Origin: Stegostoma tigrinum
Taxonomy: Eukaryota
DNA: 64,000 nt
Reading direction: 5' to 3'
Assembly (NCBI RefSeq): GCF_030684315.1
Contig: NC_081380.1
Location: 38,682,340-38,746,339, forward strand
Part shown: positions 6,883 to 59,854 of the stretch, in pieces
How positions within the stretch are numbered: the first letter of the stretch is position 1
Layout: the number at the start of each line of letters is the position of its first letter
The notes under the pieces: generated by a model
The model's database searches: none
Seen by the model: only the letters and a program-made list of their open reading frames with translations
What the model was told of the DNA's origin: nothing
Made by a program: the position numbers and the translations under genes

Positions 6883-7101
6883 GAGATGGTAGGAACTGCA
6901 GATGCTGGAGAATCTGAGATAACACAGTGTAGAGTTGGATGAACACAGCAGGCCAAGCAGCGTCAGAGGAGCAGGAAGGCTGGCGTTTCGGGCCTAGACC
7001 TTTCTTCTGAAGAAGGGTCTAGGCCCGAAACGCCAGCCTTCCTGCTCTTAAGATGCTGCTTGGCCTGCTGTGTTCATTCAGCTCTACACCTTGTTATCTT
7101 T
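6883..7101 (-). mobile_element. Palindromic Penelope-like element, family A, with hammerhead-like motif
   Basis: Inverted arms ~6917-7002 and 7013-7099; CTGAAGAAGGGTCTAGGCCCGAAACGCC at 7007-7034; degenerate TSD ttgccatttagccttg / ttgcaactagccttg. Confidence 0.8.
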
Positions 7102-10480: not shown

Positions 10481-12454
10481 TCAGCCCCTTGAGACGGTCT
10501 CGTATTCTGTGAGATCCATAGAAACCCTCCGGTATGGAAGCAAGCCATTTGGCCCATCGAGTCCACAACGACACTCCTAAGAACAGCCCACTCAGATTAT
10601 GGCTGATTTTCATGCCTTTCCTTTAGGGGAAGGCATCTTGCTTTCTGTCTGAGCAAATGATATACTCTGTGTGCTAATATCGTTAGCTGCCATTCTCCAG
10701 CCCATTGTGTCCCCCTCCAATCCCCATTGAGTCTGGAATGCTTCAGGACATTGCGACCTGCCTGTGATAGTGGGGTGTCAGGGTCCAGGTTGTTATGGCA
10801 ACAAGCACTTTCACACGCATGTTGCAATCTGGATCCTGATGGTGGGAAACTGTGGTGTCATTGCATGGCAAAAGCTAGAATTTCTTCACCCTTACCTCCT
10901 GCCATTATGTTGGAAGCGTTTGCAGTTTGATCAACAAAATGTTGGGCTGTGTTGTGAGCACACCTCCCTTGGAGCCATACCCTGTAGTGGGACCCGAACC
11001 TGGAGCCCCTTGCTCAGAGGCAGGGACACTACCTGTTGAGCCATTAGACTCCCGAGTTGCAAGTATCGCTGGATTATTGGCTAAATTATTGTTTATCAAT
11101 TTGTGACTTTGCATCTGAACGAATTGATTTTTGAGAGTCTGGGGTGTTGAGATAGAATCTGCATGGGATACTTTACTAGGCCAGTGATAATAACGGGAAA
11201 CATTACAGTGCAGAAAGGCCTTTCAGCCCATTGTGACCATGCTAGCCCCTCAAAAAAGTACCCCTGTTTCTCTGATCATATCCCGAATAAGATGTTTGGA
11301 CGTGTGGCCTGAGCAGTAGCTGTGTAACTAGAACGGAACTCATAGCTCACTCCATCCCTTGCCTGTTCAGCAAGCCGACACACCTCACTGATTTGTCCCA
11401 TGAGGTGGCTCTGGGCTGTGAAAGCAGCTTTGAAAAAGGCCCAGTGTTTCAGGCCCAGACTAAGCACAGAGTCCCACTGTGTGTGTTTACACCACTGTGA
11501 GAATTGAATCAAATATTGCTGGGTGACCCTGCCCTGGTGCATTCTGCGTTATTACTTTGTAAATGGCCAGATTAACAGATGAATTACGCTGTATAATTAG
11601 CCTGTGAACTTTGTTTCAAAACAAGCCGTGGCTTTCTATTTACTGCTGATATTATACGCTTCCCAGGACTTTTTCAATAACACAATTAATGTAATTTCAA
11701 GAGTCAAACTGCAAAGTCTTTGTCACTGCCTTAATGCAAGTATGTGAATATATGCAATGTGCAAGTATTTATGTGTGTAAAAGTGGATTTGTGTGTGTGT
11801 GCACGCGTGTGTTTCTGTCTATTTTTATGTCTATTTACATCTATATTCTGAAGAAATGCTTGGAAGGCTAACATTCTGATTCCCTGTTACCATTTGGTAA
11901 CAGAGTAAATAAACTGTTGACTGACCGGTTTCAAAGAATTGGGAGAAATAGCTGATGGAGGGGAATTGGTCTGAATTTGTGTGCAGACTGTGTGCAGTCT
12001 TTGATATAACGAGGCTGAGGGAGACAGTGTTTACACCAATTGGCCGCACGTATGCAATTGTTAAACCAGGGAAAAGGGAGCTGCTTTAGGACCAAGGCCA
12101 GGGGAGGCTGAATGCATCATCTGTCACAATTAATGTGACACGACAGTGAGAATATTGGAAGGAGGAGGTGAGTGTGCCTTGGGAATGGGATGGGAAGGGG
12201 GAACCAGTGGTTGCTGGGAGAATGATCAGCTCCAGTTCAATTAGGGTCAGCCAAGCCTTGGAGTATTAAAGGCCTCTCACCGGCTCTGTCAGGATCGATG
12301 TGGACCGGGCACAGCCACTGGATTATGATGACTATTCTAACAGAAGATGCCACAAGTTCCTTCCTGAATTTCAGAGCCCAGCAGCCTCTGTTCTCTAAAG
12401 ACAGTGATGCCTACTTTTCTTGCTCGCATTCTCATTCTCTGTGAGTTGCGTTCA

Positions 12455-12742
12455 GAGAGCAGGGATCTGTCTGCTCCCCTCAATGGACATAAATGTGGCC
12501 ACAGAAAATTGAAGGAGTTTTTTTTCCCAAGAGTCTTGGGCCACTGTTTATCCCTCAGCTGTCTAAAAATAAAAGTGCAGTATTTGGTCATGACCTCATC
12601 AAGTGTTTGTGGGAGCTTGCTGTGCGGGCGTTGGCCACTGTGTTTGGTAAACACTGGTGGGTGCGATTAGTAAGTGCTTCAGCAGCTGTAAAGCACTTTA
12701 GGGCCTTGTCGTGAAAGGAGCTATATAAATACAAAGTCTTTC
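12455..12742 (+). mobile_element. SacSINE1-like DeuSINE body and tail
   Basis: ctgtctgctcccctc..tggaca..tttatccctca..tttgtgggagcttgctgtgcg..gctgtaaagcacttt..gtgaaaggagctatataaatacaaagtcttt. Confidence 0.65.
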
Positions 12743-13147
12743 ATTATTTCATTAAAGCAGCCATACTCTGTTTTGCTCAATGGCTGAGGTGGAATGTGTT
12801 ACCATGGCACTGAGACCCTGAGGCCAAGATGTCAAACTGCTTTTCATTGTCTGGCTGGTTAATATTTGGGACTGTGTTGGCAGTTTTCCTTTACACCCGC
12901 GCACAGTTGCTGTTAGACACATCTCCACACTAAAAGACCTGGAGGAATCTTTGCAGTTAAGGTGACGATATTTTCTGATTGCCTGCTGCCTCAGCTGGGC
13001 AAGCTCACATAAATCACTCTACTTGCCTCAGATCTCACCAACTGCTTTGGTGCCTTTATTGGTGAGACTATCCCAAGATGCATTGCGAGAGAGGGCACCA
13101 GTAGATTCCGCTTGTGTCTGTGGAATTGTCTGGCGTTGATGCCATGG
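12709..13147 (+). repeat. Left arm of long-range inverted duplication
   Basis: Reverse-complement match to 22582-22949; identical blocks 12720-12752, 12781-12808, 12861-12925. Confidence 0.92.
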
Positions 13148-13239
13148 CCCCTTAATCCAACCTGTCAACACCAGAGCGGCCTGCCTGAGGTGAGGGAGTG
13201 CTGTCATGAGATATGGGCACTATAGGTTGGCGGTTATGG

Positions 13240-13570
13240 TCCATCTCTCCTTGCCCTGGAGAAGGTGGTAGTGAGCAACGTTCCCATTAATTTTCCCTAC
13301 CATTGTACAGACCAATCCCAGTGTGCACTGCATTTCTGTGCAATCTGGAGGGAATACTGATGTCGGGCTGCCTTCTTAAACCATCGCAGTCCATGGGATG
13401 TAAGTTATACCCACTGTGCTATGAGGATGGGAATTCCAAAGCTTTGTCCCAGCATCACTGTGAAGAAACAGCGATATAGTTCCAAGCTGGGACGGTGTGT
13501 GATTCGTGTGGGAAGGGGGTAGGGATGAGGGTGGGGATGGATCTTGTGGGCAGTGGTGTCCCTGGTAGCA
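13240..13570 (-). mobile_element. CR1/L2-group LINE 3' tail fragment
   Basis: ttgccctggagaaggtggtagtgagc...gctgccttcttaaaccatcgcagtccat...; reverse of the 6195-6575 family. Confidence 0.6.
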
Positions 13571-13899
13571 AATGGGGAGAGCCACAAAGCAGAGGTGGAT
13601 CTGACTGGATCACCCTTGTGGAATTCAACAGTGTCAGTGAGAAGTGATCAGTACGGCCTTTCATCTTTTGATAGAGCAAGGTTAATTCAGATGACCCCAG
13701 GGACTGAACTGAAACCAAAGCAGCCACTTCCAGCTCACCATGACTCCAGGCCACCAGGAGGTGGTTGGAGAAGGGCTAGTATTCTGTCTGTTCTGAGGAG
13801 AAATGAATGCCAACAGAATCTTGTACACCATAACTCTGTGTTTACTTGTCCTGCCACCAGTGCTATTGTTTCTCCTGTGTGCTTATCCTTCCTATATGG

Positions 13900-14402
13900 G
13901 AAAGGGAAGTTGTGAAACTTGAATGGGCTCAGAAAAGATTTATGAGGCTGTTGCCAGGGTTGGAGGGATTGAGCTACAGGGAGAGGCTGAATAGTCTGGG
14001 GCTGTTTTCCCTGGAGTGTGGGAGGCTGAGGGGTGACGTTATAAGAGTTTTATAAAATCATGAGGGGCACAGATAGGGTAAATAGACAAAGTCTTTTCCC
14101 CAGGGTAAGGGAGCCCAAAACTGGAGGGCACAGGTTTAAGGTGAGTGGGAAAAGATTTGAAAAGGACCTAAGGGGTAACTTTTCTGACGCACAGTGTGGT
14201 GTGTATGGAATGAACTGCCAGAGAAAGTGGTACAGTTAGAACATTTTAAAAGGCGTCTAGATGTGTATATGAATGGGAAAGGCTTTAGAAGGATATGGGC
14301 CAAAGGCTGGCAAATGGGACTAGATTAGTTTAGGATATTTGGTCAGCATGGGAGGAGTTGGACCGAAGGACTTGCTTCAGTGCTGTATATCTCTATGGCT
14401 GT
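13900..14402 (+). mobile_element. CR1/HER1-type LINE 3' end
   Basis: KLEWAQKRFMRLLPGLEGLSYRERLNSLGLFSLECGRLRGD (CR1 ORF2 C-terminus); 3' UTR gttggaccgaagg...gtgctgta. Confidence 0.85.
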
Positions 14403-14994
14403 GTGATCATGTTTTTTTCCCCTCACTGCCCTCAAGAATGTGATGTGCTGGGCCATTTCAGACAACAGTTTAGAATCAACCACTGTTGTTGCTGTGTTTG
14501 ATCTTTGGGCTGATTCCAGCCTCAGACATTTGCCATCAGTGAAATTTATTGATGTTGACGGAAGCAGAAAGACAGAAACCATTTCCTGACTTGCTGAGCT
14601 CCATTTGATGGCACTGTTTTTGGGGGTTCGACACTGTGGGCAGGGGATGAATAGTCAGAGGGGGGAATGGGGCAGCCTGGAGTCTAGCTCAAGGTCAGGT
14701 TACAGAGAGCTGTTTGAGAGAGACCCTGACAAAGTGGGAAGGGGGACAGGCTGGGAGTTCAGCAAATGCTGGGAATACCTGGGTTAAGACACTGACAGAC
14801 TGAGGCTGGGTGTGTACCTGTACTGGATGGGGAGCCTGTTGCTTCAAAGACCCTTCCCCAGTATCATAACAATTCTTAGACGTTGACCCTTCCCCATCCC
14901 AGCAGCACCTGATCACACAGAAGCTTTTAGCAAGTGTCTTTCAACACCTTATCTCATCACATGTGGGCTTCAGGAATGTTATTATTGACACTTT

Positions 14995-15425
14995 TACACC
15001 CATTCTCACACTCTCACTCGCACTCATCCTCTCACTTTCTCACACATGCCCATCCTCTCACTTTCTCACACTCGCCCATCCTCTCACTTTCTCACACTCG
15101 CCCATCCTCTCACTTTTATACACGCCTTCACTTTGGCACTCGTCCTCTCACTCTCACAGTCTCACACTCTCATTCATACTTGTACTTCCTCACTCGCACT
15201 TTCTCTCTCTCACCCTCGTTTTACCATTCTCAGACTTTTGCAGATTCACTCACTTACCCTCCCCTTCACACTTGCACACGCTCAGCCTTGCTGTCTCCCC
15301 CACCCCCCACCATTACTCACGCTTTCGCAGTGTCGTTTCACAGCTCTCACAGCCCCGCTTTCTCACTCCTGTGCTCTCACATGCAGCCTCAGTGAGATAC
15401 ACTCACATTGTCACAATCACACTCA
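14995..15425 (+). repeat. CA/CT-rich low-complexity region with ~4 copies of a 26-bp unit
   Basis: cactcgcccatcctctcactttctca repeated at ~15020-15118. Confidence 0.8.
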
Positions 15426-15964
15426 GTAATGGAGACCCATTGCAGAAGGATCTGGGGTGGGGTTTGGGTTTGGGCAATCTGCCCTAGCCCCCTCCAGCAG
15501 CACTTGGACAGGCTATCAGACGGATAGTGGGGGAGACTGAGACTGTACCTTCCCTGGCCAGTGGGCTGGAAAGGAGCTGTGTGTTTGTTGACCTGCTTTC
15601 AACTTGAAGCCCACAACTAGGGTGAATTCAATAGGAGCGAAACTCAAAAACACAACACTGTAATCATTTCCAACCAATGGTTGGGTTCTCTGAAAGTGGG
15701 GAATCATTCCTGGTTTGACTGCAGTGTTTGATGGCAGGTTTTTTCATTAATAATTAACTTTGAAACTTAGAGCTTTGATTCTGTTTGCCCTCCCACCCTA
15801 CCTGAATTGATTTTGTTTTTGTTTTATGCGGTTTTGTATTAATCAAGTAAACAGCACCTGATTCCCATTAGCAGAGCAGTGATTGCCTGGAGCTCTGTCC
15901 TTGCTCCCTGTACCCCTAGCGCTCTGATCCAGAGAGGTCTTAACCCTTACTCTGCTGGGTAACA

Positions 15965-16155
15965 AGAGCAGAGAGCTCTGGAGAGACTTAGCAGGTCTGT
16001 GAAGAGAGTAACTCAGTTAATGTTTCATGTCCAATGATCTCCTTCTGTTCTGTTAATGTTAACTCTGTTTCTCTCTCTACAGCCCTGCTGAGTTTCTCCA
16101 GCACTCTCTGTTTATGTTCATTTTAGCCATCCAGCATCCACAGTTTTTTGTTTTA
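15965..16155. mobile_element. Decayed inverted pair of family-B Penelope-like fragments
   Basis: ctggagagacttagcagg...agttaatgtttc facing aatgttaactctgtttctctctctacagccctgctgagtttctccagc. Confidence 0.55.
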
Positions 16156-16349
16156 GATAAAGGGTCCAGCCCACTGGGTTCCAGCCACAGAATCGTGACT
16201 TGTTATGTACTCGAGGAAGGGTCAACTATTTTGTTAGGCCTGATCATTTAATTTTGCTTTTACAGAGCTGCATTAATTGAATTCCTAACCACACCCCTCT
16301 GCAAAGCCCCTTTCCCCACCTCCCCCACCCCTGGTGGACTGTTCACCTT

Positions 16350-16455
16350 CATTCTGAAGAAGGGCCTCTGTGCTTGAAACATTAACTCTGCTTTCTGTCT
16401 CCACAGATGCTGCCTGACCTGCTGAGTTTCTCCAGCAGTTTCGGTTTTTCTTTCA
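16350..16455 (+). mobile_element. Penelope-like family-B fragment with hammerhead-like motif
   Basis: attCTGAAGAagggcctctgtgcttGAAAcattaactctgctttctgtctccacagatgctgcc. Confidence 0.7.
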
Positions 16456-18367
16456 CGTTATGTCGTGTTCCTTCAGGACTCTGTGCTTGCCTGTGTGTTT
16501 AGGAAGGGAGTGAGTAGATGGGGTGAGCAAGGAGGTGCGTGTGAGTGTTCTATGGTGAGGAGGGAAGGGACAGACTGATGGATGAAATTAGGGTAAATAT
16601 TTATTTATGACTCGAACAGATGATGATCCACCCCATCACCTCTTTATCGGACTCGATAGTACTGATGCATTTAAATTCAGAAATAGTAATGGGCTTGAAA
16701 ATTGGACTGTGATTGCCTGCGAGCAGCCTTGGAGTCTCCATCAGAATGTTTTCATTTCTTTTGAGGATACTTTTAGCGTTGCCGTGGCAACACTTTGCCA
16801 CTCTATATACTGACCGAGAATGCAATTTTTGCCCGGTGCATGCTAATCTCAGCAGCCAGATCGAAAGTGCCATGTGGCTGTGACCTATCAGCAGTGACCC
16901 TCACCTGAAGGATAAGCAAGGTCGGACCCTTCACGGACTGATGCTGCGGCCGGGCACAGGGAGACAGGACGTGCATTTGCATAGCGCCTCTCAGGACTTC
17001 GGGGTGACCCAAGGTGGCCCTGCTGCTGACAAACTCCGTAAGCACAGGAGAGGGAGAAGGGAACACAGTAAATACCGACCGAGGGGGCAAGAGGAGGCCG
17101 TTCTGGCCCCCTCCCCGAGCCTGCTTTGCCAGTTGATAACATAGTGGCCAATCTGACAGCAGCCAGCCTGATGGCCCAGATCGATCTAGCTCTTGTTTTC
17201 ACAAAAAAAATTCAAGCAGCCCAGATACGTCTTGGGGAGCAGAGATCCCCACAGATCCTCGAATCTCGGACAGAGGAAAGAGAATGTGCTGCTTGCCTTC
17301 TGCCTCAAACAGGAGACCCTTTATTTTTAAACAGTGTGTTCGACCCCAGCTCGAGTCACTGTTATGAGGGGAGGCATCATCTCAGTCAAGCCCTCTTGCA
17401 TATTGCAATCAGATCACCTCTCATTCATCTCAACTCTAATGGGCACAGGCTGCTCAACCATTCCTCCTAGGTTTGGCATGCACCAACCCCCTCAAAATTA
17501 AAAAAACTAACGTATTTATGGTTTGGAGTAAAACTCGAAGGGACCCATGACAAGTATAAACAGCAGTACAGACATGTTAGGCCGCATAGCCTGTTTTGAT
17601 GCGGTGGGTACTTTGTGAGAGCAGCTTCTGAAGGTGACATCTTCCACGCATTGAGGCCCCACATACAGAGATGGGGTGCAGCGATCACCCCCTCATCCTG
17701 CTTTGTTGGCTGTGTTTCTTTGGAATCCATCTTGATTTGTGACTGCCTCACGGGTTGCTAGCGCAGATCCCAGAGAGAGCAGGACTGACCGGGTACTGAC
17801 TGACTCTCATATATTCTGTGGAACTGCTCCTGCTTTATTGCCTAGCTGTCCGAGCCAGGTAGTTCGAAGGGGGCTTTGCTGTAATTATTGGTGCTGTCGT
17901 GACACTGCCACAGCTCACTAACCTCACTTAACACCACCCCCCCACCCCATGCTCTGCCAAAACCCAAGCCCCCTTTGCCAAAAGCAATTTGAATGAGTGA
18001 GTTTAATTTTAAATGTGATCATTTAAGGTTTTTATCAACCCAGATCTACAGGGGAATATCAAAGTTCGGCTTTTGAAACCTGCCCTAATTATTTGTTAGC
18101 GAGTATATTAAAAAAAAATCGATTCTGTACTGGCTTGGCACTTGCTGGGTTATCTTGCTCAGGAATTCGTCAAATTCTGTTTGTAAAATGCCGATTTTTT
18201 TTAAAAAAAATTCTGTGACTTAAAAATGCTGAAATGTTAGAAATACAAAGCGTATTGATTGGTATCTGAAAGAGAGGCATAATATATCACACTTGAAAAT
18301 CCTTTTGACATGTTGTTGCTGGTTACTGTTTCAGAGATGGTTTGACATTTCCAACAGTATCTGCTCT

Positions 18368-18830
18368 TAGAAACAGAGAAAATAGGAACAGCAGTAGGCC
18401 ATTCAGCCCTCCAAGTCTGCACCACCATTCAATATGATCATGGCTGATCATGCAACCTTAATATCCCATTCCCGTTTTCTCTCCTTATCTCTTTGATCCC
18501 TTTAGCCTCAGGGCCATATCCAGCTCCCTATTGAACATATTTAATGAACAGGCCCCAACAGCTTCTGGTGGGAGAGAGAATTCCTCATGTTCACATCTCT
18601 CCGAGTGAAGAAATTCTTCCTCACCTCAGCCCTGAATGGCTTATCCCTTTTGCTTAGACTGTGACCCCTAATTCTGGATTTCCCCAACATCCGGGAACAT
18701 TCATCCTGCAACTAGTCTGTCCAGTCCCATCAGGCTTTTATAGGTTTCTGTGAGATTCCAGCCCCCCACCCCGCCAATCATGTCTTAAAATTCCAGCAAA
18801 TACAAGCCCAATCGATCCAACCTTTCTTCT
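18368..18830 (-). mobile_element. CR1-type LINE 3' end
   Basis: tagaaacagagaaaataggaacagcagtaggccattcagccc... tail; minus-strand RLDRLGLYLLEF. Confidence 0.8.
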
Positions 18831-18869
18831 TCATTTCTGCAAGGAGCAAGTTTTCTAGCTGAGAAATAA

Positions 18870-18982
18870 GTAAGAACTGACATTGCTGGAGCCAGAGATA
18901 ACAAGATGTGGAGCTTGAGGAACACAGCAGGCCAGGCAGCATTAGTGGAGCAGGAAAGCTGATGTTTTGGGTCAGGGCTAAT
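18870..18982 (-). mobile_element. Penelope-like family A, single arm
   Basis: gataacaagatgtggagcttgaggaacacagcaggccaggcagcattagtggagcaggaaagctgatgttttgggtc. Confidence 0.7.
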
Positions 18983-19539
18983 TTTTAAGCAGAATCTTTT
19001 TTTTTCCACATCCAAAGGCTTGTGTGGGATTTCCAAGAGGTTGGAAACTTATTGACGGGTACCAGCTCATGCAGACTAAGTTCACTGTCAACTGAGTCAA
19101 CTGACTTGTTTGTAAGACTGCTTCCCATCCTGATGTACAATGCTACAAGGATTTCTGCCTTGGATATGGAGGGAGGGATCGGACCTGAATTGGGAATGGG
19201 CTAAGTTCGTGCATTCCGAACTTTCTTCCCCGAGACCCCACTGTAATGCTTTAATGCAAATTGGATTTTGCCTACAATAGTTTTAAAGGCTGTTGGAGCT
19301 TTGGCTCCACTCCTGCCATTCACAACCCTCCATAGCGGGAGAATTCCAGGAAAGTCCGATACTGAGCTTAGTCAACCATTGGGACTTTCCATGCGTAAAC
19401 AGCCCACAAAGTAAAAAGATACAGTATAAAGCTGCCAGACCTCCTCTTCGACAATTTCTGTTTTTGTGTCAGTAACATTAGAAAAGAATTATATAGGATA
19501 TTAGATATACACAATGGGTTTGCAGAGCGTGTCGAGGTG

Positions 19540-19716
19540 TGACATATATTGGCCCTGTGTGGGTGGCTGTCTTGTGTTTGGGGTAAGTGTGTGTGTCACG
19601 TGTAATGGCCTTATGCATGTATATGTCCTGTTTATTGGCTCTGCCTCTCTCTCTGTACTGCGTATAGGCCTGACGTGTGTTTGTGTCCAATGTGTGGCCA
19701 TGTGTTGATTCTGCCC

Positions 19717-19761
<45 letters not shown>

Positions 19762-20030
19762 TTGCATATTGACTGCCTTTTTCTGCATGTGGCCTGCATA
19801 TTAACTGTGTCTGTTTTCAAGAGGCCTGTATATGATTGTGCTTCTGCATGTGTGGCCTGTGTATTGATTGTCCATGAGTACATGTAGCTTGTGTATGGAT
19901 TGTCCCTCTAATGTGTGTGTGTGGCCTGTGTATTGACTCTGTTGCTCTGTGTGTCCATCCTGTGTATTGACCTAGACTGTATTTTTGCCCTGTGTTTGGG
20001 CCTGTGTGTTGACCTGTGTGCGAGACCACA
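19540..20030 (+). repeat. (TG)n microsatellite (~19719-19760) within a TG-rich degenerate repeat
   Basis: ~20 pure TG units plus recurring tgtggcctgtgtattga. Confidence 0.88.
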
Positions 20031-21360
20031 GTGAGTCAATGATCCCCTTGCCCTGTGCTTTGAGATTTTCTGGCATTTCTGCAACTCTGCTCAGAAGAAT
20101 CTCTCTTAATTGGTGCCCGGAGAGTTAAGTCGCTGTTTTTGAAACTCTGATGCTCACAACAGATGTGTTTTTGATCTCTTTAATTCTCCTGTGGGCTCTT
20201 AAGTACGTGTCTGGGAAAGACAATGTTTCTAAGCCAGAAACAAAGCTACTTAGGAGAGCAGGTCAGTAAAGTGGGATGAATACACAACTCCTTAATTGTT
20301 GTATTTGCTCTATTCGAAAATTGAGTCTGGCCCCTAGTTTCATATTTAATGGGGGCCGTACAGAATTGTGCTTCTGCTGGAGGTTACAATCAGTTTCACT
20401 CACTGAGACACAAACTCAAGGCTACAACATTAATTGAAGGGATCTGTGTGTTGCTGGCTAGGTTAGCATTTGTTGCCCAAGCCTACTTGGCCAGAGGGCA
20501 GTTATGAGTCAGCCACATTGCTGTGGGTCTGGACATGCATGGAGGCCAGTGCAGGCAAGGTCCTTCCTCCTGCTCTCGTACCCCTGCAGTTCAGATCTCA
20601 CAGCACAGCCCACTTAATATGCTGGGGTTTAAAGGGCTGTGTCTGCCCCCCAGAATCAGGGACATTCCCCTAATCAGGGAAATGGTGCCCCCTGTTTAAA
20701 GGATGCTTCTAATACAGTTTCATCACTGGGCCCACTTAGCCAGCTTGGCTTGGTTGTAGTGCTCCTGCCTAGTTAGCTGTAAGGTGGTGGGCTGTAATCA
20801 CGTCCCGAGACTCCAGAATACGTGCCAAGCTGATACTTTGGTGGAGTCGTTGAAAACAGTCAGTATGGAGACATTATACTGAGGCTGGGAGAGAGGCTGG
20901 ATCCCAGAGCATTGATGGGAATATTTTCTGGACACCCTTTCAAACACAATCACTAAAACAATTGAACCTCCCTTTTACCGCATTTTGGTGCATGACATCT
21001 TGTCACACATGAACATTTAATAAATTAATCCATTGGATGTGAAGCGATTTGGGGAGAGCTAGAAGGTGCTATTTGAACATAAGTGTTATTCTTCAGGTAC
21101 TCGTACCATCCTGCATCACTGCTTCATTGTGAAAATCAAACTGAATCATTATTCCACTATGGTCTGGCCTCATTTGCCATTGTTTAGGGGATCACATTCT
21201 CCCATTTGGTCAATCTTCTGGGAGAACTGCCAACCCAGTGATTAGATGTGGGAACAGAAGCCAGCTGTTCAGCCCATCAGGTCTACTCTGCCATTCAGTG
21301 AGATGTATGGTGATGTTGATCCATGGCAGAGTTGAATCTGAGCTATGACAAAAGTTTTTG

Positions 21361-21578
21361 AGATAACGCGGTGTGGAGCTGGATGAACACAGCAGGCCAA
21401 GCAGCATCAGAGGAGCAGGAAGGCTGACGTTTCGGGCCGAGAGCCTTTTTCAAAAGAAGAGTCTAGGCCTGAAACGTCAGCCTTCCTGCTCCCCTAATGC
21501 TGCTTGGCCTGCTGTGTTCATCCACGTCTACACCTTGGTATCTCAGATTTTCCAGCATCTGCAGTTCCTACTATCTTT
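21361..21578 (+). mobile_element. Palindromic Penelope-like element, family A
   Basis: Arms agataacgcggtgtggagctggatgaacacagcaggccaagcagc... / ...gctgcttggcctgctgtgttcatcc...; degenerate TSD tgacaaaagtttttg / tgacagtagttttg. Confidence 0.8.
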
Positions 21579-21904
21579 TGACAGTAGTTTTGTTGATTTA
21601 TCCTGGCACCTCTTTCCTGTATCTACATCACCAGGGATAGATCCTTAAATACCAACACTTGATCGCAGTGGTGGCCGTCTCATAATTCTCTCAACTCAGC
21701 ACCAGAATATTGTGGATTCTGTAATGATAATTGCCTTGTGCATTTATCCATTCAAGGCTACTATACAGACATTAAAGCAGCAGCAGAAGTCTTCCAGGGA
21801 GACGTAATAAAAATGATTCATGTGTCACAGTCTGGGCAGTTCTAATTCTGAGTGTATCTGGCTGGGTGTGTAAATGTTTTTGCCCTAAGAACGTTACAGT
21901 TTCA

Positions 21905-22145
21905 AGTCATGATGCAGTGACTTCCCCACGTAATCTCATCTGAAAGTCCCTTGTCAGCACAAAGGGAGTGCTGCTCTGTCAAAGGCGCGACTTTCTGCAT
22001 GAGACATTAAACTGGATGGGGGAGATTGTGTTTTCCCAACATCCTGGTCACTATTTATCACTCAGTTACCGCAAAGAGATTATGCAGTCAGAATAATGCT
22101 GCTGTTTTGTGGAAACTGGTGTGCAGGTAGATGCAACGTTTGCTC
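21905..22145 (+). mobile_element. SacSINE1-like DeuSINE central (Deu-domain-like) fragment
   Basis: gggagtgctgctctgtcaaaggcgcgactttctgcatgagacattaaac. Confidence 0.55.
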
Positions 22146-22169
22146 CCTTAAGACTGCCTCTGCATATTT

Positions 22170-22495
22170 GCAAAATGAGCTGCGGCAACTTGGAAACTCC
22201 CTGCAAACGCACCTTCTGAAACCGCAATCTGTACCATCCAGAAGGCTCAGGGCAGCTGGTTCATGAGAGCACCACGCATGGCTGTAAGTTCTCCGAGCGA
22301 GTCACTACGCTGATGTAGAAGTACATTGACATTCTTTCAGTGTGGCGGTGTCAAAATCCTGGCATGTCCTTCCTGACAGCAGTGTGAGTGTGAGCATACC
22401 TTCTCCTGAATAATTGCAGTGATTTAAGAAGGCAGTTAGGAATGCGCAGTAAATGCTGGCCTTGCCCAAAGCCCATGTCCCCGGATTAAAGATCA
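22170..22495 (+). mobile_element. CR1/L2-group LINE 3' tail fragment
   Basis: gcaccttctgaaaccgc...tcaaaatcctgg...aagaaggcag...taaatgctggccttgcc. Confidence 0.6.
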
Positions 22496-22581
22496 TTCCC
22501 TCACCTCAATCCAGGCAGGATGGGATAGGGAACTAGTGGAGGCTGGCCTGGTGTGGGCAGGTTGGACCAAGGGGCCTGTTC

Positions 22582-22949
22582 CCGTGGTGTCCACGCCAGA
22601 CAATTCGACAGAGACAAGTGGCGTCCAGTTATGCCCTCTCTCACAATGCATCTTGGGATTGTTCACACCATTTACAGACACAAAAGGATTGCAAGCGGTG
22701 GGTGAAACACAAAGTCGAGATTTTTTAGTGCAGAGATGTGTCTAACAGCAACTGTGCGCGGGTGTAAAGGAAAACTGCCAACACAGTCCCAAATATTTAC
22801 CAGACAGACCACAAGAAGCCATTTTACATCTTGGCCTCAGGCCTCAGCGCCATGGTAACACATTCCACCTCAGCCACTGAGCGAAACAATGCACAGCTGC
22901 TTTTGATGAAATAATGAAAGACTTTGTATTTATATAGCACTTTTCATGA
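22582..22949 (-). repeat. Right arm of long-range inverted duplication
   Basis: Reverse complement of 12709-13147; 22733-22797 is the exact reverse complement of 12861-12925. Confidence 0.92.
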
Positions 22950-23154
22950 ACTGCCAAAGGATAAGGGCAGCTGAACACCACCACCTGAAAGCTCCTCTCA
23001 AAGTCACACACCAGTATTACTTAGAACTATGTTGCAGTTCCTTCACTGTTGCTGGGTCAAAATCCTGAAATTCCCTTCATTGCACTGCTGTGGGTAACAC
23101 TCAATCCGCCCACAGCAAGCTCCTGCAAATAGCTGTTACAGAACCTGTTTTGGG

Positions 23155-37496: not shown

Positions 37497-38025
37497 GGAG
37501 GTATTGGCCTAGTGGCATTATCGTTGGACTGTTAGTCCAGAGTTCTGGGTAACAGTCTGGAGACCTGGGTTTGAATCCTGCCACGGCAGTTGGTGGAACA
37601 CAAAAGCTGACGTTTCAGGCCTAGACCCTTCATCAGAAAAGCATCTAGGCCCGCACCATCAGCTTTTGTGCTCCTAAGATGCTGCTTGGCCTGCTGTGTT
37701 CATCCAGCTCCACACCTTGTTATCCTGGATTCTCCAGCATCTGCAGTTCCCATTATCTCTGACGGCAGTTGGTGGAATTTGAATTCAATAAAAATATCTG
37801 GAATTAAGAATCTAATATTAGATTCTTAATGATTCTTTGAGGGGGGAAATCCATCTGGTTCACTAATGTCCTTTAGGGAAGGAAACTGCCATCCTTACCT
37901 GGTCTGGCTTACATGTGACTCCAGACCCACAGCAATGTGGTTGACTCTGAACTGCCCTCTGGGCAATTAGGGATGGGTAGTAAACGCTGGCCTAGCCAAT
38001 GACGCCCTTGTCCCGTGAATGAATG
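37497..38025 (+). mobile_element. Full-length SINE family B interrupted by a Penelope-like palindrome
   Basis: Head tggcctagtggcatt...gggtttgaatcc; tail cgtgaatgaatga. Confidence 0.82.
37599..37761 (+). mobile_element. Palindromic Penelope-like family A element with 16-bp TSD
   Basis: Exact acggcagttggtggaa at 37583-37598 and 37762-37777; minus strand 37609-37636 reads CTGATGAAGGGTCTAGGCCTGAAACGTC. Confidence 0.85.
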
Positions 38026-42291: not shown

Positions 42292-42395
42292 TGTTGGTAC
42301 GGATTGGTTGGACAGGGTGACCTGTTTCTATGCATTAAAACCTCTGTAGTTCTGTAAAACTACACAAAGATGTTGCGACACCTGTACAGAGACAA
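42292..42395 (+). repeat. 104-bp direct repeat, copy 1
   Basis: 100/104 identical to 44043-44146. Confidence 0.95.
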
Positions 42396-43343: not shown

Positions 43344-43392
43344 GTAGAAGATGCCATGCTAATGTTTGATAAGACAACCAACAGGCATCGAG
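43344..43392 (+). CDS. MSI2: Internal 49-nt coding exon of RNA-binding protein Musashi homolog (RRM2, ending at the start of RNP1), most likely Musashi-2
   Basis: tttttgtcttgcag|GTA GAA GAT GCC ATG CTA ATG TTT GAT AAG ACA ACC AAC AGG CAT CGA G|gtaagt translates to VEDAMLMFDKTTNRHR(G). Canonical acceptor and perfect donor, phase 0 to 1. VEDA matches MSI2 (MSI1 has VDDA); very long flanking introns also fit MSI2. Too short for the ORF track. Confidence 0.93.
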
Positions 43393-43869: not shown

Positions 43870-44046
43870 AGGCAAAATACTTTTTAACGTTGGAAATCTG
43901 AACCAGTCAAAGGGAGCACTGGTGATGCTCAGCAGGCTTGTCAGCGTCTGTGGAGAGAGAAACAGATTTAACATTTTGAATCAAATTGGAACATCGTGTT
44001 GAGGTGAGAGAAATGCAGTTAATGTTTTCAGTCCAGTACAACTGTT
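43870..44046 (-). mobile_element. Penelope-like family-B fragments (reverse)
   Basis: ggaaatctgaa...ctcagcaggcttgtcagcgtctgtggagagagaaacagatttaacatttt and gagagaaatgcagttaatgttttcagtccag. Confidence 0.65.
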
Positions 44047-44146
44047 GGTACAGATTGGTTGGACAGGGTGACCTGTTTCTATGCATTAAAACCTCTGTAG
44101 TTCCGTACAACTGCACAAAGATGTTGCGACACCTGTACAGAGACAA
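44043..44146 (+). repeat. 104-bp direct repeat, copy 2
   Basis: 100/104 identical to 42292-42395. Confidence 0.95.
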
Positions 44147-45124: not shown

Positions 45125-45580
45125 GAGCGCAGGATCTATTGCCCTGAGACCTGGGCTCTGCTGCCTTCAGTACCCGGGATCTACTGTCCCCAGATTTTGT
45201 GATTTCCTTCCGTTGTCACCCAGCATCTGTTGTCCTCAAAGCCTGGGATCTGTTTCCTTCAGAGTCCGGGATCTACTGCTCTTGGATCCTGAGATCTTCC
45301 ACCCCTGGAGCCCAGGACCTCCAGAACCTGGAATCTGCTGGTTGACCCTCTGCGATCTGCTGTTCTTGGAACCTAGGATTTCCTGCCTGAGCCTATGGGA
45401 TTTGCTATCCTCAGAACCTGGAATCTGCTGGCTGAACCTCTGGGATCTGCTACTCCTGGAGCCCAGGTTTTCCTGTCTGAACCTCTGGGATCTGCTACTT
45501 TCGGAACCCAGGATTTCCGGCCTGAGCCTATGAGATCTGCTACTTTCGGAACCCAGGGATCTGCTGCCTGGGATCTGCAT
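45125..45580 (+). repeat. Minisatellite with 45-bp higher-order period built from ~22-bp ggatctgct subunits
   Basis: ctgaacctctgggatctgctactcctggagcccaggttttcctgt followed by ctgaacctctgggatctgctactttcggaacccaggatttccggc (starts 45432 and 45477). Confidence 0.85.
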
Positions 45581-51190: not shown

Positions 51191-52637
51191 GGGCTCCTCT
51201 CTGGAGTGTTAGTCCCAAGAGGTTGAATAACATCAAGTCACAACCGTGCATCAGGTGACAACAATGGCAGCATCAAAAGCCCCACCCCACCCCCAACACT
51301 GTTGAAAGGCTTGGCTTGACCACCCCCTACTCATTGTGGAAGAACCATCAGAAGCCATTCGCAAGAGCTGTTGGTGCTGAGAATGACGCTTCATATTGAT
51401 AGCACCAATCAACACCATCCAAATTTGGCTAGCACAGTTTAGTAGATAAATTCTGTCCTTTTATTTTTGGTCTCTGCTTAACGGAACAACATTATCATTC
51501 CATTCTCACGGAGGAAGAACTACTTAAAATGTGAGAATCAAGTGGCAGTGATTTGGTGTTAATATCTGTTTAGTCAGAGGAGCGAGCTAAAGTGGTGCAA
51601 CTGGGAATAACCTGGGCCAAGGTTTGCACTTAAAAAATGCCCGCAAAGCTTAGTCATGGCATCAAGTGGAGGTTTACGTGGGCACTGCATGATGCATTTC
51701 TCTTACATTTACATTAATTAGGCTAAAAGGGAACAAGCAATTGCCCAGGTTAAAAAAAAAAGTTTGAGCCCATTTGCTGATACTCAAAGATGAGAAGCAG
51801 AGAGTTTGCATTGTGAAATCGATTGTTTACTTAGATTGCTTCTAATGCAAAGAGTTAATGCAGTGGGTGAAATTGTGAGTTGAAATCTGTTCTATAATAG
51901 TACACACTATTCAGCCTGTCTGCCTGGCACTGTCTCTCTGAATGACCAGTTCACTGAGTGCCCATTCCCACTCGACCTGCACGTTCTTCCTTTTCAGAAA
52001 GTACTCCAAGTTGTGTTTGAAGGCTTTGATCAAATCAGCCTGTTTCAGATCCTCAGGCAGGTCATTCCAGACCTTAACTGCACAAGGAAGATTTCCCCCA
52101 TGTCACTCTTGCTTCTTTTACCATTACTTTACGTCTGTGCATCTCAATCTTTCCATGAGTCAGAACAATTCCTCTCTACTTTTCCAAACTCTTGAGGATT
52201 TTTGAAGCTCCCTATTGATTCTCCACATAGCTTTCTCTTTTCCAAGGAAAACCAGCCCAGCCTTTCACAGCCTGAGGATAAATCGAAGTGTTTCACACAA
52301 GGGGGGAGAGCCCATTTTAAAAGTGTAATTACTAGAGCAGTTTAGGAGTGTACGGGATCTTTGATGCTCACCAGGGGAGAGTAGACAGATTTAACCTCTC
52401 GTAGGAAAAGGTCTTTAAAAACGGGGATGTTTTCATTTGTTAATTCCAGTTGATTGCTGACAGATTTACTTATTCAGGAGATTCACATTGGATCAATGAC
52501 AGGTTTAATCAGTGAGTTTACTGCACTTGGTCCCAAGGTCAGTGATTAGGGGCTTGATGCAAAGGGGGGAAATAGTGAGAGATGTGATTCAGATTGACAA
52601 TGCAACCGTGAATCAAGAGGTTTTTTCAATCAAGTTT

Positions 52638-52768
52638 TTTCTGACGAAGTTTCTAGACCCAAAACGTCAACTTTTGTGCTCCTAAGATGCTGCTTGGCCT
52701 GCTGTGTTCATCCAGCCCCACACTTTGTTATCTCGGATTCTCCAGCATCTGCAGTTCCCATTATCTCC
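52638..52768 (+). mobile_element. Penelope-like family A single arm
   Basis: CTGACGAagtttctagacccaaaacgtcaacttttgtgctcctaagatgctgcttggcc...tctccagcatctgcagttcccattatctc. Confidence 0.78.
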
Positions 52769-58516: not shown

Positions 58517-58665
58517 TCAATGGAAGCATTGAATGCTTATTTGGAGAGCAATGGTGTGGAGGGAAATGGGAAACAGACAGCATATTGGCACTAGGGGATA
58601 GAACCAGTGCAGGCATGATGGACTGAATGGTCTATTTGTACACCATAACAATTCTATGATTCTGT

Positions 58666-58880
58666 GATAACAAGGTGTAGAGCTGGATGAACTCGGCAGG
58701 CCAAGCAGCATCTTAGGAGCAGGAAAGCTGATGTTTCGGGACTAGACCCTTTATCAGCTGATGAAGAGTCTAGGCCCAAAACGTCAGCTTTCCTGCTCCT
58801 AAGATGCAGCTTGGCCTGCTGTGTTCATCCAGCTCCACACCTTGTTATCTCGGATTCTCCAGCATCTGCAGTTCCTAATA
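58666..58880 (+). mobile_element. Palindromic Penelope-like family A element with ~15-bp TSD
   Basis: Arms 58666-58757 and 58758-58848 meet without spacer (tcag|ctga); tctatgattctgtga at 58653-58667 and 58881-58895. Confidence 0.87.
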
Positions 58881-59854
58881 TCTATGATTCTGTGACTTAA
58901 TCACGAGGAAATCAAAAGTGAGGAGATGCACATGAACCCTGCTTGTGTAGGAGATAACTCCAATGTTTTATTTTAAAGGCTCTCAAAATAAGCAGGTGAA
59001 TGAGCCTCTGCAGAAGCACTGAACAGAGTTCTCAAAATCTACAATATATTTGATCCCAATGAAAATACATCATGACCTGACCCCTTAAGCCTGTTGACTG
59101 TTGGATATTATAGTTAGTGGAGTGAGGTGTGCACTTCTCAAATCGTCATTGCTCTGGGTTACAGTAGAAACCCAGAGGTAAACAAAAGAAAGGAACGTGC
59201 AATCTTATTGACAGAGAAGGGGAATTATTCCTCTGCTCTTTTCGAGTGGCCAAACCCGCTGTTTATTCAGCACTAGTAAATCCAGCTGTTGGCCTGTTAA
59301 AGATAACACGCAGTCACTGTCAGACACTCCAAGCTTAAAGAGGTATTGTACCTTTAAGACTCATTGATCCGTTTTGTTTAATTGCAAGACTCAGCTACCC
59401 TGCAAAGGGAAACCCTTTCCTGTGTGATGGGGCCCTCACTACAAACCTTCAGGTTAACCTCATTGGAAGTAGAACCCTTCCAACTAATCAGCTGATTGCA
59501 GCATTTTTTTTAAAGAATATGTTTTTGGAGCAGTCTGCATATTGGGGTCAAGGCCACACTATTGACTGAACTCCATTGTTCCTCGCTCGACGATCGATGG
59601 ACTCCTCACAGTGTCAACACCAAAATGCACCAAATAAGCGGACCACCATCAGCTAGGGAAGTCTCCACCCCACCCCACCCCCACCCCCACCAACAGGGAG
59701 GGTCAATAGTGGAGCTTGTTGTGTTGTGGATCTGGAACTCAGCCAGAAGCCCTCACGGTTGATTCCTATCGCAAGAAGGGTGTAAAAACAGTATGGGGAC
59801 AAAGTTGAGAAGGAGACACCTTTCTGGGGCTTGAACGTGTGCTGTTGAGTTACT

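What the first reader, a model, noticed from the sequence alone, without database searches (positions are those of the whole stretch)
12709..22949. Long-range inverted duplication inside the Musashi intron with a perfectly conserved 65-bp core
Seen: 12709-13147 is the reverse complement of 22582-22949, with 9.4 kb between the inner ends. Apart from a SINE tail at the outer end, the arms match no other repeat family I recognise here. Divergence is very uneven. 12861-12925 vs 22733-22797 is 65/65 identical and keeps the CpG-rich cccgcgc; 12720-12752 (33 bp) and 12781-12808 (28 bp) are also identical. The intervening parts have many substitutions and a ~90-bp indel (~12940-13030). Inference: neutral decay should be more uniform and remove CpGs first. 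The pattern suggests selection for a long-range RNA duplex in the pre-mRNA (looping out 9.4 kb of a giant intron, or an ADAR substrate), a duplicated enhancer under constraint, or recurrent gene conversion between inversion-flanking arms.
Basis: partly seen in the sequence, partly recalled or inferred. Interest (0 to 1): 0.75.

Follow-up and report, generated by a model that had tools for sequence, protein, structure and literature searches.

The report
Old inverted duplication with homogenised patches
A roughly 490-base piece of a Musashi gene intron is present twice, back to back about 9.3 kb apart, and its perfectly matching 65-base core was most likely produced by one copy overwriting the other during DNA repair (gene conversion) rather than by selection for an RNA structure.

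Summary
12709-13197 and 22497-22949 are inverted copies. The 65-bp core is exact and appears in independently assembled contigs as a two-copy unit, so it is neither an assembly artefact nor a dispersed repeat. Identity is too patchy for uniform decay (permutation p=0.0013; 0.01 with clustered differences merged). The arms differ at 18% of sites outside the core and 36% in an old repeat at their inner ends, so the duplication is old (about 80-190 My or more on a published shark clock). Selection for an RNA duplex is not supported: sense-strand differences give 11 G-U wobbles against 19 A-C mismatches, and transposon pairs in the same intron form equally stable duplexes. The spacer keeps the sense-strand base skew, which argues against frequent inversion. 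Best reading (0.55): local inverted duplication plus short-tract gene conversion. Main rival (0.25): a duplicated element under sequence constraint. My toy simulation gives the pattern in only 0-12% of runs at human-like conversion rates, so the rival stays open. No orthologue from another species and no RNA data could be examined; those are the deciding tests.

The parts
12470..12742 (+). Decayed SINE-like repeat whose 3' tail forms the outer end of the left arm (start approximate; SacSINE1/L2-type tail is a recalled resemblance)
   Evidence: multi-copy contig depth at 12604-12641 and 12718-12755; related tails at 1824 and 16985 differ at 6 and 8 of 23 positions
12709..13197 (+). Left arm of the inverted duplication; likely the source copy, since the SINE continues upstream of it
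   Evidence: source role is inference
12720..12752 (+). 33-bp identical patch spanning the SINE tail and its junction
12781..12808 (+). 28-bp identical patch
12861..12925 (+). 65-bp identical core, left copy; holds two CpGs and a weak acceptor-like AG ending at 12906
12944..13044 (+). Unaligned stretch: 101 nt in the left arm against 28 nt in the right
   Evidence: joint 12935-13070 in runs X1 and X2
13045..13182 (+). Second homology block, 27 mismatches in 138 aligned bases
13186..13197 (+). Last shared 12-bp block; contains a donor-like site at 13190 (rank 14 of 3852 GT sites, crude matrix)
13198..13503 (+). Old high-copy repeat (LINE-like, recalled) starting just inside the left arm, interrupted at about 13277-13366
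13520..22150 (.). Spacer; keeps the sense-strand T>A skew of the flanks
22290..22496 (-). Same repeat family starting just inside the right arm; 66% identical to the left-arm copy, no closer than other copies are
22497..22949 (-). Right arm (inverted copy)
22733..22797 (-). 65-bp identical core, right copy
22950..23101 (-). Further fragment of the same repeat family abutting the outer junction of the right arm
43344..43392 (+). 49-bp Musashi RRM2 exon (VEDAMLMFDKTTNRHR); fixes the transcribed strand as +

Best explanation
The two arms are an inverted duplication of about 490 bases of Musashi intron, present in two copies, whose identical 65-, 33- and 28-base patches were likely made by short gene-conversion tracts copying one arm onto the other long after the duplication. 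Shown: two copies, inverted, about 9.3 kb apart, patchy identity, no wobble excess, spacer skew in the sense direction. Inferred: (1) a repair or template-switch event copied the left segment (SINE tail to old repeat) and inserted it backwards nearby, probably without flipping the spacer; (2) the copies decayed to about 18% difference with indels; (3) occasional ectopic repair between the neighbouring arms overwrote short tracts, the 65-bp tract within roughly the last 20-40 My, and slow shark substitution rates keep such a tract perfect for that long. Any pre-mRNA duplex or editing would be a by-product.
For: Two-copy status and a real core. Outside the core the two blocks are equally diverged (27/169 vs 27/138, p=0.45), and the core has sharp edges with about one difference in three bases on either side. 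One identical patch covers a decayed SINE tail (23/23, where other in-window copies differ at 6-8 of 23), which suits a sequence-blind process. CpG decay is active outside the core (1 of 11 CpG columns kept in both arms) but absent inside (2 of 2). Differences are not biased to G-U (11 vs 19). Conversion tracts of 14-450 bp, mean 99 bp, occur between human LTRs and are more frequent between linked copies (PMC4921805, passages); the human mean tract is 250 bp at about ten times the point-mutation rate or more (10.1101/135152, passages). Whale-zebra shark dS is only 0.061-0.111 per 50 My (PMC13100897, passages), so 0/65 is compatible with a tract up to 21-38 My old. With no conversion the pattern appeared in 0 of 200 simulations in each of 12 settings.
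Against: No orthologue was seen, so concerted evolution is not demonstrated. The toy simulation gives the pattern in only 0-11.5% of runs at 20x the mutation rate and 0-28% at 40x, mostly with short tracts and a 15-bp seed, and in 0-3.5% with a 30-bp seed; a first simulation at divergence 0.47 gave 0 of 150 at four of five non-zero rates. Harpak et al. find that duplicates soon escape conversion as they diverge (section 7 read). The core is not GC-enriched (46% vs 46%). Patchy identity is also what constraint on binding sites would give.
Confidence: 0.55

Rival explanations
1. The outer 225 bp is a regulatory element (for example an intronic enhancer) that was duplicated, and both copies, or one copy plus conversion onto the other, are held by purifying selection on the DNA sequence.
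For: Three separate perfect patches. Divergence gradient 11.5% / 19.6% / 35.8% (p=2e-8). Human MSI2 intron 6 holds active enhancers (PMC9898029, passages). Neutral conversion explains the pattern only in a minority of simulations.
Against: One patch is a retroposon tail junction. An RFX-like motif (consensus recalled) in the 28-bp patch is no more than chance (8 matches vs 5.4 expected). It needs near-ultraconservation of two copies.
Confidence: 0.25
2. Selection keeps the arms complementary so that the pre-mRNA forms a long-range duplex, looping out 9.3 kb, masking cryptic splice sites in the left arm, or serving as an ADAR substrate.
For: Both arms lie in the transcribed intron; the duplex is very stable on paper (-354 kcal/mol for block 1); core-to-core distance 9807 nt is within the 10-kb range of human PCCRs. 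The core holds an acceptor-like AG followed by an in-frame stop, and the last shared block holds a donor-like site.
Against: Sense-strand transitions give 11 G-U vs 19 A-C (control inverted repeat pairs 385 vs 361; p=0.14 against control, 1e-5 against an assumed 75% G-U). The core has no G-U pair at all; 6 of 211 predicted pairs in block 1 are G-U. The antisense duplex is slightly more stable than the sense one (-366 vs -354), and a transposon pair in the same intron gives -386. The acceptor is weak (rank 259 of 4488), and 8 pseudo-exons in the window score as well on both sites. Human PCCRs have a median length of 13 nt.
Confidence: 0.1
3. The arms are the scars of a staggered-break inversion of the spacer and still flip it from time to time, with conversion as part of the flipping.
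For: Inverted duplications of unique sequence flank 17 of 29 Drosophila inversions (PMC1885836, passages); homogenised inverted repeats flip a 24-kb region in yeast (PMC9731477, passages).
Against: The spacer has the same T>A skew as both flanks (0.081, 95% interval 0.036-0.133, vs 0.071 and 0.040). No strand-changing joint was listed, but only the left arm was laid and contigs break at the core, so that test has little power.
Confidence: 0.05
4. The arms are two copies of a dispersed transposable element, or terminal inverted repeats of a 10-kb transposon.
For: The intron is full of inverted transposon pairs (179 pairs). Copies under 80% identity elsewhere in the genome would not have been laid.
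Against: Only two contigs cover 12756-12860 in run X2 (21.4 + 27.6 = 49.0) and the core contig has twice single-copy depth. The left arm starts inside a SINE that continues upstream, no target-site duplication is visible, and identity peaks internally.
Confidence: 0.03

Closest known systems
Non-allelic (interlocus) gene conversion between linked duplicates: human duplicates (10.1101/135152; passages and section 7 read) and human LTRs (PMC4921805; passages)
   Same: Short identical tracts inside otherwise diverged, physically linked copies; tract sizes of tens to hundreds of bases.
   Different: Here the copies are small (about 0.5 kb), non-genic, inverted and already about 18% diverged, beyond the range where Harpak et al. 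expect much conversion; conversion is inferred from one genome, not from a phylogeny.
Homogenised inverted repeats that flank recurrent inversions: yeast flip/flop region (PMC9731477; passages) and the mammalian X-chromosome case of Caceres et al. (seen only as cited there; that it is the FLNA-EMD locus is recalled)
   Same: Two inverted copies around a spacer of about 10 kb or more, kept alike in part.
   Different: Those arms are kilobases long and nearly identical throughout; here identity is patchy and the spacer shows no sign of flipping.
[quoted passage not shown]
   Same: Complementary intronic segments within 10 kb in one pre-mRNA, with strong predicted pairing.
   Different: PCCRs are defined by cross-species conservation and are short (median 13 nt); here the complementarity comes from a duplication, conservation is untested and there is no G-U excess. 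The term 'MSI2' does not occur in that paper's main text; its supplements were not seen.
Staggered-break inversions with flanking inverted duplications (PMC1885836; passages)
   Same: Inverted duplication of formerly unique sequence.
   Different: No evidence that the spacer was inverted; the skew argues against it.

Membership tests
Duplicates under non-allelic gene conversion | Two linked paralogous copies | tested here: met
Duplicates under non-allelic gene conversion | Identical tracts longer than uniform divergence allows | tested here: met
   p=0.0013-0.0105; p=0.0014 for the two other runs
Duplicates under non-allelic gene conversion | Arms more alike within a species than between species (concerted evolution) | not testable with these tools
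   no other species' locus was available
Duplicates under non-allelic gene conversion | Polymorphic converted alleles in the population | tested here: inconclusive
   no left-arm variant listed in X1 or X2, both from one study; bisulfite runs gave 7 and 10 reads, none over 12870-13021
Conserved long-range RNA duplex (PCCR) | Complementary segments in one pre-mRNA within 10 kb, below -15 kcal/mol | tested here: met
Conserved long-range RNA duplex (PCCR) | Both segments conserved across species, with compensatory changes | not testable with these tools
   only organism A listed; no alignment possible
Conserved long-range RNA duplex (PCCR) | Substitutions biased to keep pairing (G-U over A-C) on the transcribed strand; an expectation from general RNA-structure knowledge, not part of the PCCR definition | tested here: not met
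   11 vs 19
Conserved long-range RNA duplex (PCCR) | A-to-I editing or duplex reads in vivo | not testable with these tools
   no RNA holder listed
Inversion-flanking inverted repeats | Spacer found in both orientations, or inverted relative to an outgroup | tested here: inconclusive
   skew matches the flanks; contigs break at the core and only the left arm was laid
Dispersed transposon or terminal inverted repeats | Further copies in the genome | tested here: not met
   two copies at 80% likeness or more in run X2, about 92% of the run read
Dispersed transposon or terminal inverted repeats | Target-site duplication and highest identity at the termini | tested here: not met
Known non-coding RNA family (Rfam) | Covariance-model match or stable local fold | tested here: not met
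   0 matches at gathering score in the window; best E=1.9 around the left arm; left-arm fold z=-0.91
Duplicated coding exon or pseudogene | Open frame in both copies with protein homologues | tested here: not met
   stops in all six frames of each arm; no Pfam match at cut-off for 15 stop-free segments; 3 hits were summed weak matches to repeat proteins
Duplicated enhancer or conserved non-coding element | Cross-species sequence conservation and regulatory activity | not testable with these tools
   one search is inconclusive; no chromatin data

The most novel reading that the evidence does not exclude
A chance inverted duplication in the Musashi intron was co-opted and kept for more than 100 My as a long-range RNA duplex: the right arm pairs over the acceptor-like site in the 65-bp core and the donor-like site at 13190, hiding a stop-containing cryptic exon, while gene conversion keeps the arms matched. 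That would be a self-repairing splicing silencer born from a duplication.
Probability: 0.08. Interest if true: 0.7.

Novelty: new member of a known kind. Interest (0 to 1): 0.27.

Why it matters
On the best reading it is a tidy example of gene conversion still acting between small inverted copies that are about 18% diverged, and a caution: in slow-clock genomes a perfect 65-bp inverted match with intact CpGs need not mean selection. It is directly testable with existing shark assemblies, where one alignment separates conversion from constraint from pairing. If the core proved conserved in both arms across sharks, or proved to mask a cryptic exon, it would be a new regulatory element in a stem-cell and neural RNA-binding protein gene.

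Tried and rejected
No whole genome is held for this window, so copy number rests on contigs of one run. Rfam: nothing. Left-arm local fold: not better than shuffles. Earlier scan notes: no look-alike stretch in other windows, none for this genome, none for a word search. Run search: 10 runs listed, all organism A, 4 holding the stretch, from 1 study; no RNA holder listed, which is no evidence on expression; the absence of other organisms has no positive control. Metagenome scans with two probes: 0 matches each, as expected for vertebrate DNA. Bisulfite runs X5 and X6: 7 and 10 reads laid, none over 12870-13021, so no methylation call for the core CpGs. I laid 4 of the 10 listed runs, and only on the left arm region 12300-13420. 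Coding origin: a 3-base periodicity of mismatches was followed up and gave no homologue. Cryptic exon: scored with approximate, recalled splice matrices; acceptor weak, 8 equal or better pseudo-exons in the window. RFX-like motif: chance level. Dating the duplication by the shared inner repeat (220-400 My) was not accepted as secure, because the inner junction may have used two separate copies of that repeat. Literature: no paper on this element in searches for MSI2 + intron + inverted repeat (15 of 75 listed), Musashi/MSI2 + intron 6 + enhancer (10 of 10) or editing + inverted repeats + shark (1 of 1); the library lacks most subscription papers.
Full report
Observation. Self-comparison gives two inverted blocks, 12709-12943 vs 22949-22715 (207 of 236 columns) and 13045-13182 vs 22686-22540 (111 of 147). 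Exact runs of 65, 33 and 28 bp lie at the stated places, and 65 is the longest exact match listed for the window. It is also the longest run among 87 repeat pairs of 100 bp or more; the next are 51 bp in a 96% pair and 46 bp in a 91% pair. Homology ends inward at a 12-bp block (13186-13197 / 22497-22508), leaving about 9.3 kb between the arms. Shuffling the differences gives P(run>=65) = 0.0013 in block 1, 0.0105 when adjacent differences are merged, and 6e-5 over both blocks. Without the core, runs of 33 and 28 together have p=0.0014. The run was picked out after looking, so these values overstate the surprise somewhat.

Gene context. One exon was found, 43344-43392 on the + strand, reading VEDAMLMFDKTTNRHR and matching Musashi1 RRM2 (E=1.5e-5). 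That the E marks MSI2, and that this is the intron numbered 6 in human, is recalled. No other Musashi motif from my short list was found in six frames, so the arms are inferred to lie in the long intron upstream of this exon.

Real and two-copy. Four runs of organism A, from one study, hold 88-94% of the 16 sampled words of 12745-12943. In run X2 (about 92% read) the left arm region is covered by left-type contigs at depth 19.7, 21.4 and 16.7, right-type contigs at 27.6 and 18.3 that carry the assembly's arm-specific letters, and one 65-nt contig spanning exactly 12861-12925 at depth 38.4. Depth at 12756-12793 is 49.0, the sum of just those two contigs, whereas the flanking repeats reach hundreds to thousands. 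So the core is not a polishing artefact and has two copies at 80% likeness or more. Limits: the tool warns that summed depth is no copy number (I used single-contig depths), a filter drops some records, and these runs may include the assembly's own sample.

Anatomy and age. The left arm begins inside the tail of a decayed SINE that continues upstream; the right arm has only the last 35 bases or so of it, joined to a fragment of another old repeat. No target-site duplication is visible. Just inside the last shared block both arms are followed by the same end of one old repeat family in matching orientation; 11 other copies of that end were aligned from the window. There the arms are 25/42 and 86/131 identical, no closer than to other copies (64-74%). 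Differences are 11.5% in block 1, 19.6% in block 2 and 35.8% in this repeat (p=2e-8). Outside the core, blocks 1 and 2 do not differ (27/169 vs 27/138; p=0.45). With whale-zebra shark dS of 0.061-0.111 per 50 My (PMC13100897, passages) this gives 81-185 My for the unique part, 220-398 My if the inner repeat was copied with it, and at most 21-38 My for an unselected 0/65 core. The older date is insecure, because the junction may have joined two separate repeat copies, and the clock is borrowed from other species.

Test of the RNA duplex. The gene is transcribed from +, so selection for pairing should tolerate G-U and purge A-C (general knowledge). Sense-strand transitions give 11 G-U and 19 A-C (5 vs 12 in block 1). 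Forty-eight control inverted pairs give 385 vs 361 (p=0.14 for the difference; p=1e-5 against an assumed 75% G-U). The core has no G-U pair, and 6 of 211 predicted pairs in block 1 are G-U. The sense duplex (-354 kcal/mol) is no better than the antisense one (-366) or than a transposon pair in the same intron (-386). A duplex may well form, but nothing shows it is selected. In its favour, the core has an acceptor-like AG ending at 12906 with a stop nine codons on, and the last shared block has a donor-like site at 13190. By crude recalled matrices these rank 259 of 4488 and 14 of 3852, and 8 pseudo-exons in the window score as well on both.

Test of inversion. With tandem arrays masked, the spacer has T>A skew 0.081 (0.036-0.133), against 0.071 and 0.040 in the flanks. 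A recently or repeatedly flipped spacer should show reversed or no skew, so an inverted insertion of a copy is more likely than a flanked inversion. This is indirect.

Conversion versus constraint. For conversion: sharp edges around the core, a patch over a retroposon tail that is 23/23 identical between arms while other copies differ at 6-8 positions, CpG decay outside the core but not inside (1 of 11 vs 2 of 2), and published tract sizes (PMC4921805: 14-450 bp, mean 99; 10.1101/135152: mean 250 bp). Against it: that paper stresses escape from conversion as copies diverge, and my toy model gives a run of 65 or more with at least 14% difference elsewhere in 0 of 200 runs without conversion, 0-11.5% at 20x and 0-28% at 40x the mutation rate over 12 settings, highest with short tracts and a 15-bp seed. 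An earlier version gave 0 of 150 at four of five non-zero rates and 27% at the highest. So neutral conversion makes this pattern uncommonly but not rarely, which suits a feature picked as the most striking in a 64-kb window. Constraint on a duplicated enhancer remains credible, since human MSI2 intron 6 holds enhancers (PMC9898029, passages). No other organism was listed as holding any of the 16 words, where a neutral relative 50 My away would be expected to hold 0.4-2.4, but the index is incomplete and uncontrolled, so I give this little weight. A hybrid, with one constrained arm converting the other, is possible and is counted under the constraint rival.

Other ideas. No Rfam family and no unusual local fold. 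Mismatches fall unevenly on positions modulo 3 in left-arm coordinates (29:7:18, p=0.0012, post hoc) but not in right-arm coordinates (p=0.49). Every frame has stops, Pfam gave nothing at cut-off for 15 segments, the Atlas gave no usable hit, and three representative hits were summed weak matches to repetitive proteins. The periodicity is left unexplained.

What I saw of each paper: passages only for PMC10587355, PMC13100897, PMC3961182, PMC9731477, PMC1885836, PMC9898029, PMC4921805 and PMC5499810; passages plus one section for 10.1101/135152 (section 7) and 10.1101/2020.05.05.076927 (section 5); abstract and outline for PMC10503786. No supplements were read; the PCCR lists in the bioRxiv supplement might hold human MSI2 pairs. 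An earlier scan note on an elephant-shark TBC1D9 intron (e1-7812334, unchecked) describes a similar local backwards copy, which hints that such events recur in cartilaginous fish.

Verdict. A real, old, two-copy inverted duplication with patchy homogenisation. Most likely gene conversion (0.55), then sequence constraint (0.25), selected RNA duplex (0.10), inversion scar (0.05), transposon (0.03). New member of a known kind; interest 0.27.

Noticed in passing
window 42292-42395 and 44043-44146: A 104-bp direct duplication, 96% identical, with one copy on each side of the Musashi exon, 1.75 kb apart; a younger local copying event in the same gene.
   Followed up: partly
window 12709-13182 vs 22949-22540: Arm-to-arm mismatches show a 3-base periodicity in left-arm coordinates (29:7:18) and 7 synonymous vs 5 non-synonymous codons in one frame of 13067-13144, yet no open frame or homologue; unexplained, possibly chance.
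   Followed up: yes
window 22515-22697 (+): A 183-nt stop-free stretch inside the right arm between a weak acceptor-like and a weak donor-like site; a probable chance pseudo-exon.
   Followed up: partly
window 6884-7099, 21361-21576, 58658-58883, 37595-37762, 52636-52767: A family of largely palindromic repeats of about 130-230 bp in both orientations; they resemble Penelope-type ends with minimal hammerhead-like motifs (recalled, not tested; Rfam gave no match). The 6884/21361 pair could compete for RNA pairing across the same region.
   Followed up: no
window 22950-23101: The outer junction of the right arm joins the SINE tail to a fragment of the same repeat family that follows both arms inward; it overlaps the left inner copy by about 100 bp (68% identity) and may record the repair event that made the duplication.
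   Followed up: partly
window 45322-45570: Tandem array with a 45/90-bp period, about 77% matches, downstream of the exon.
   Followed up: no
window 12809 (run X6): One bisulfite read carries the right-arm letter here, a weak sign that the right arm exists in a sample from a second study.
   Followed up: no
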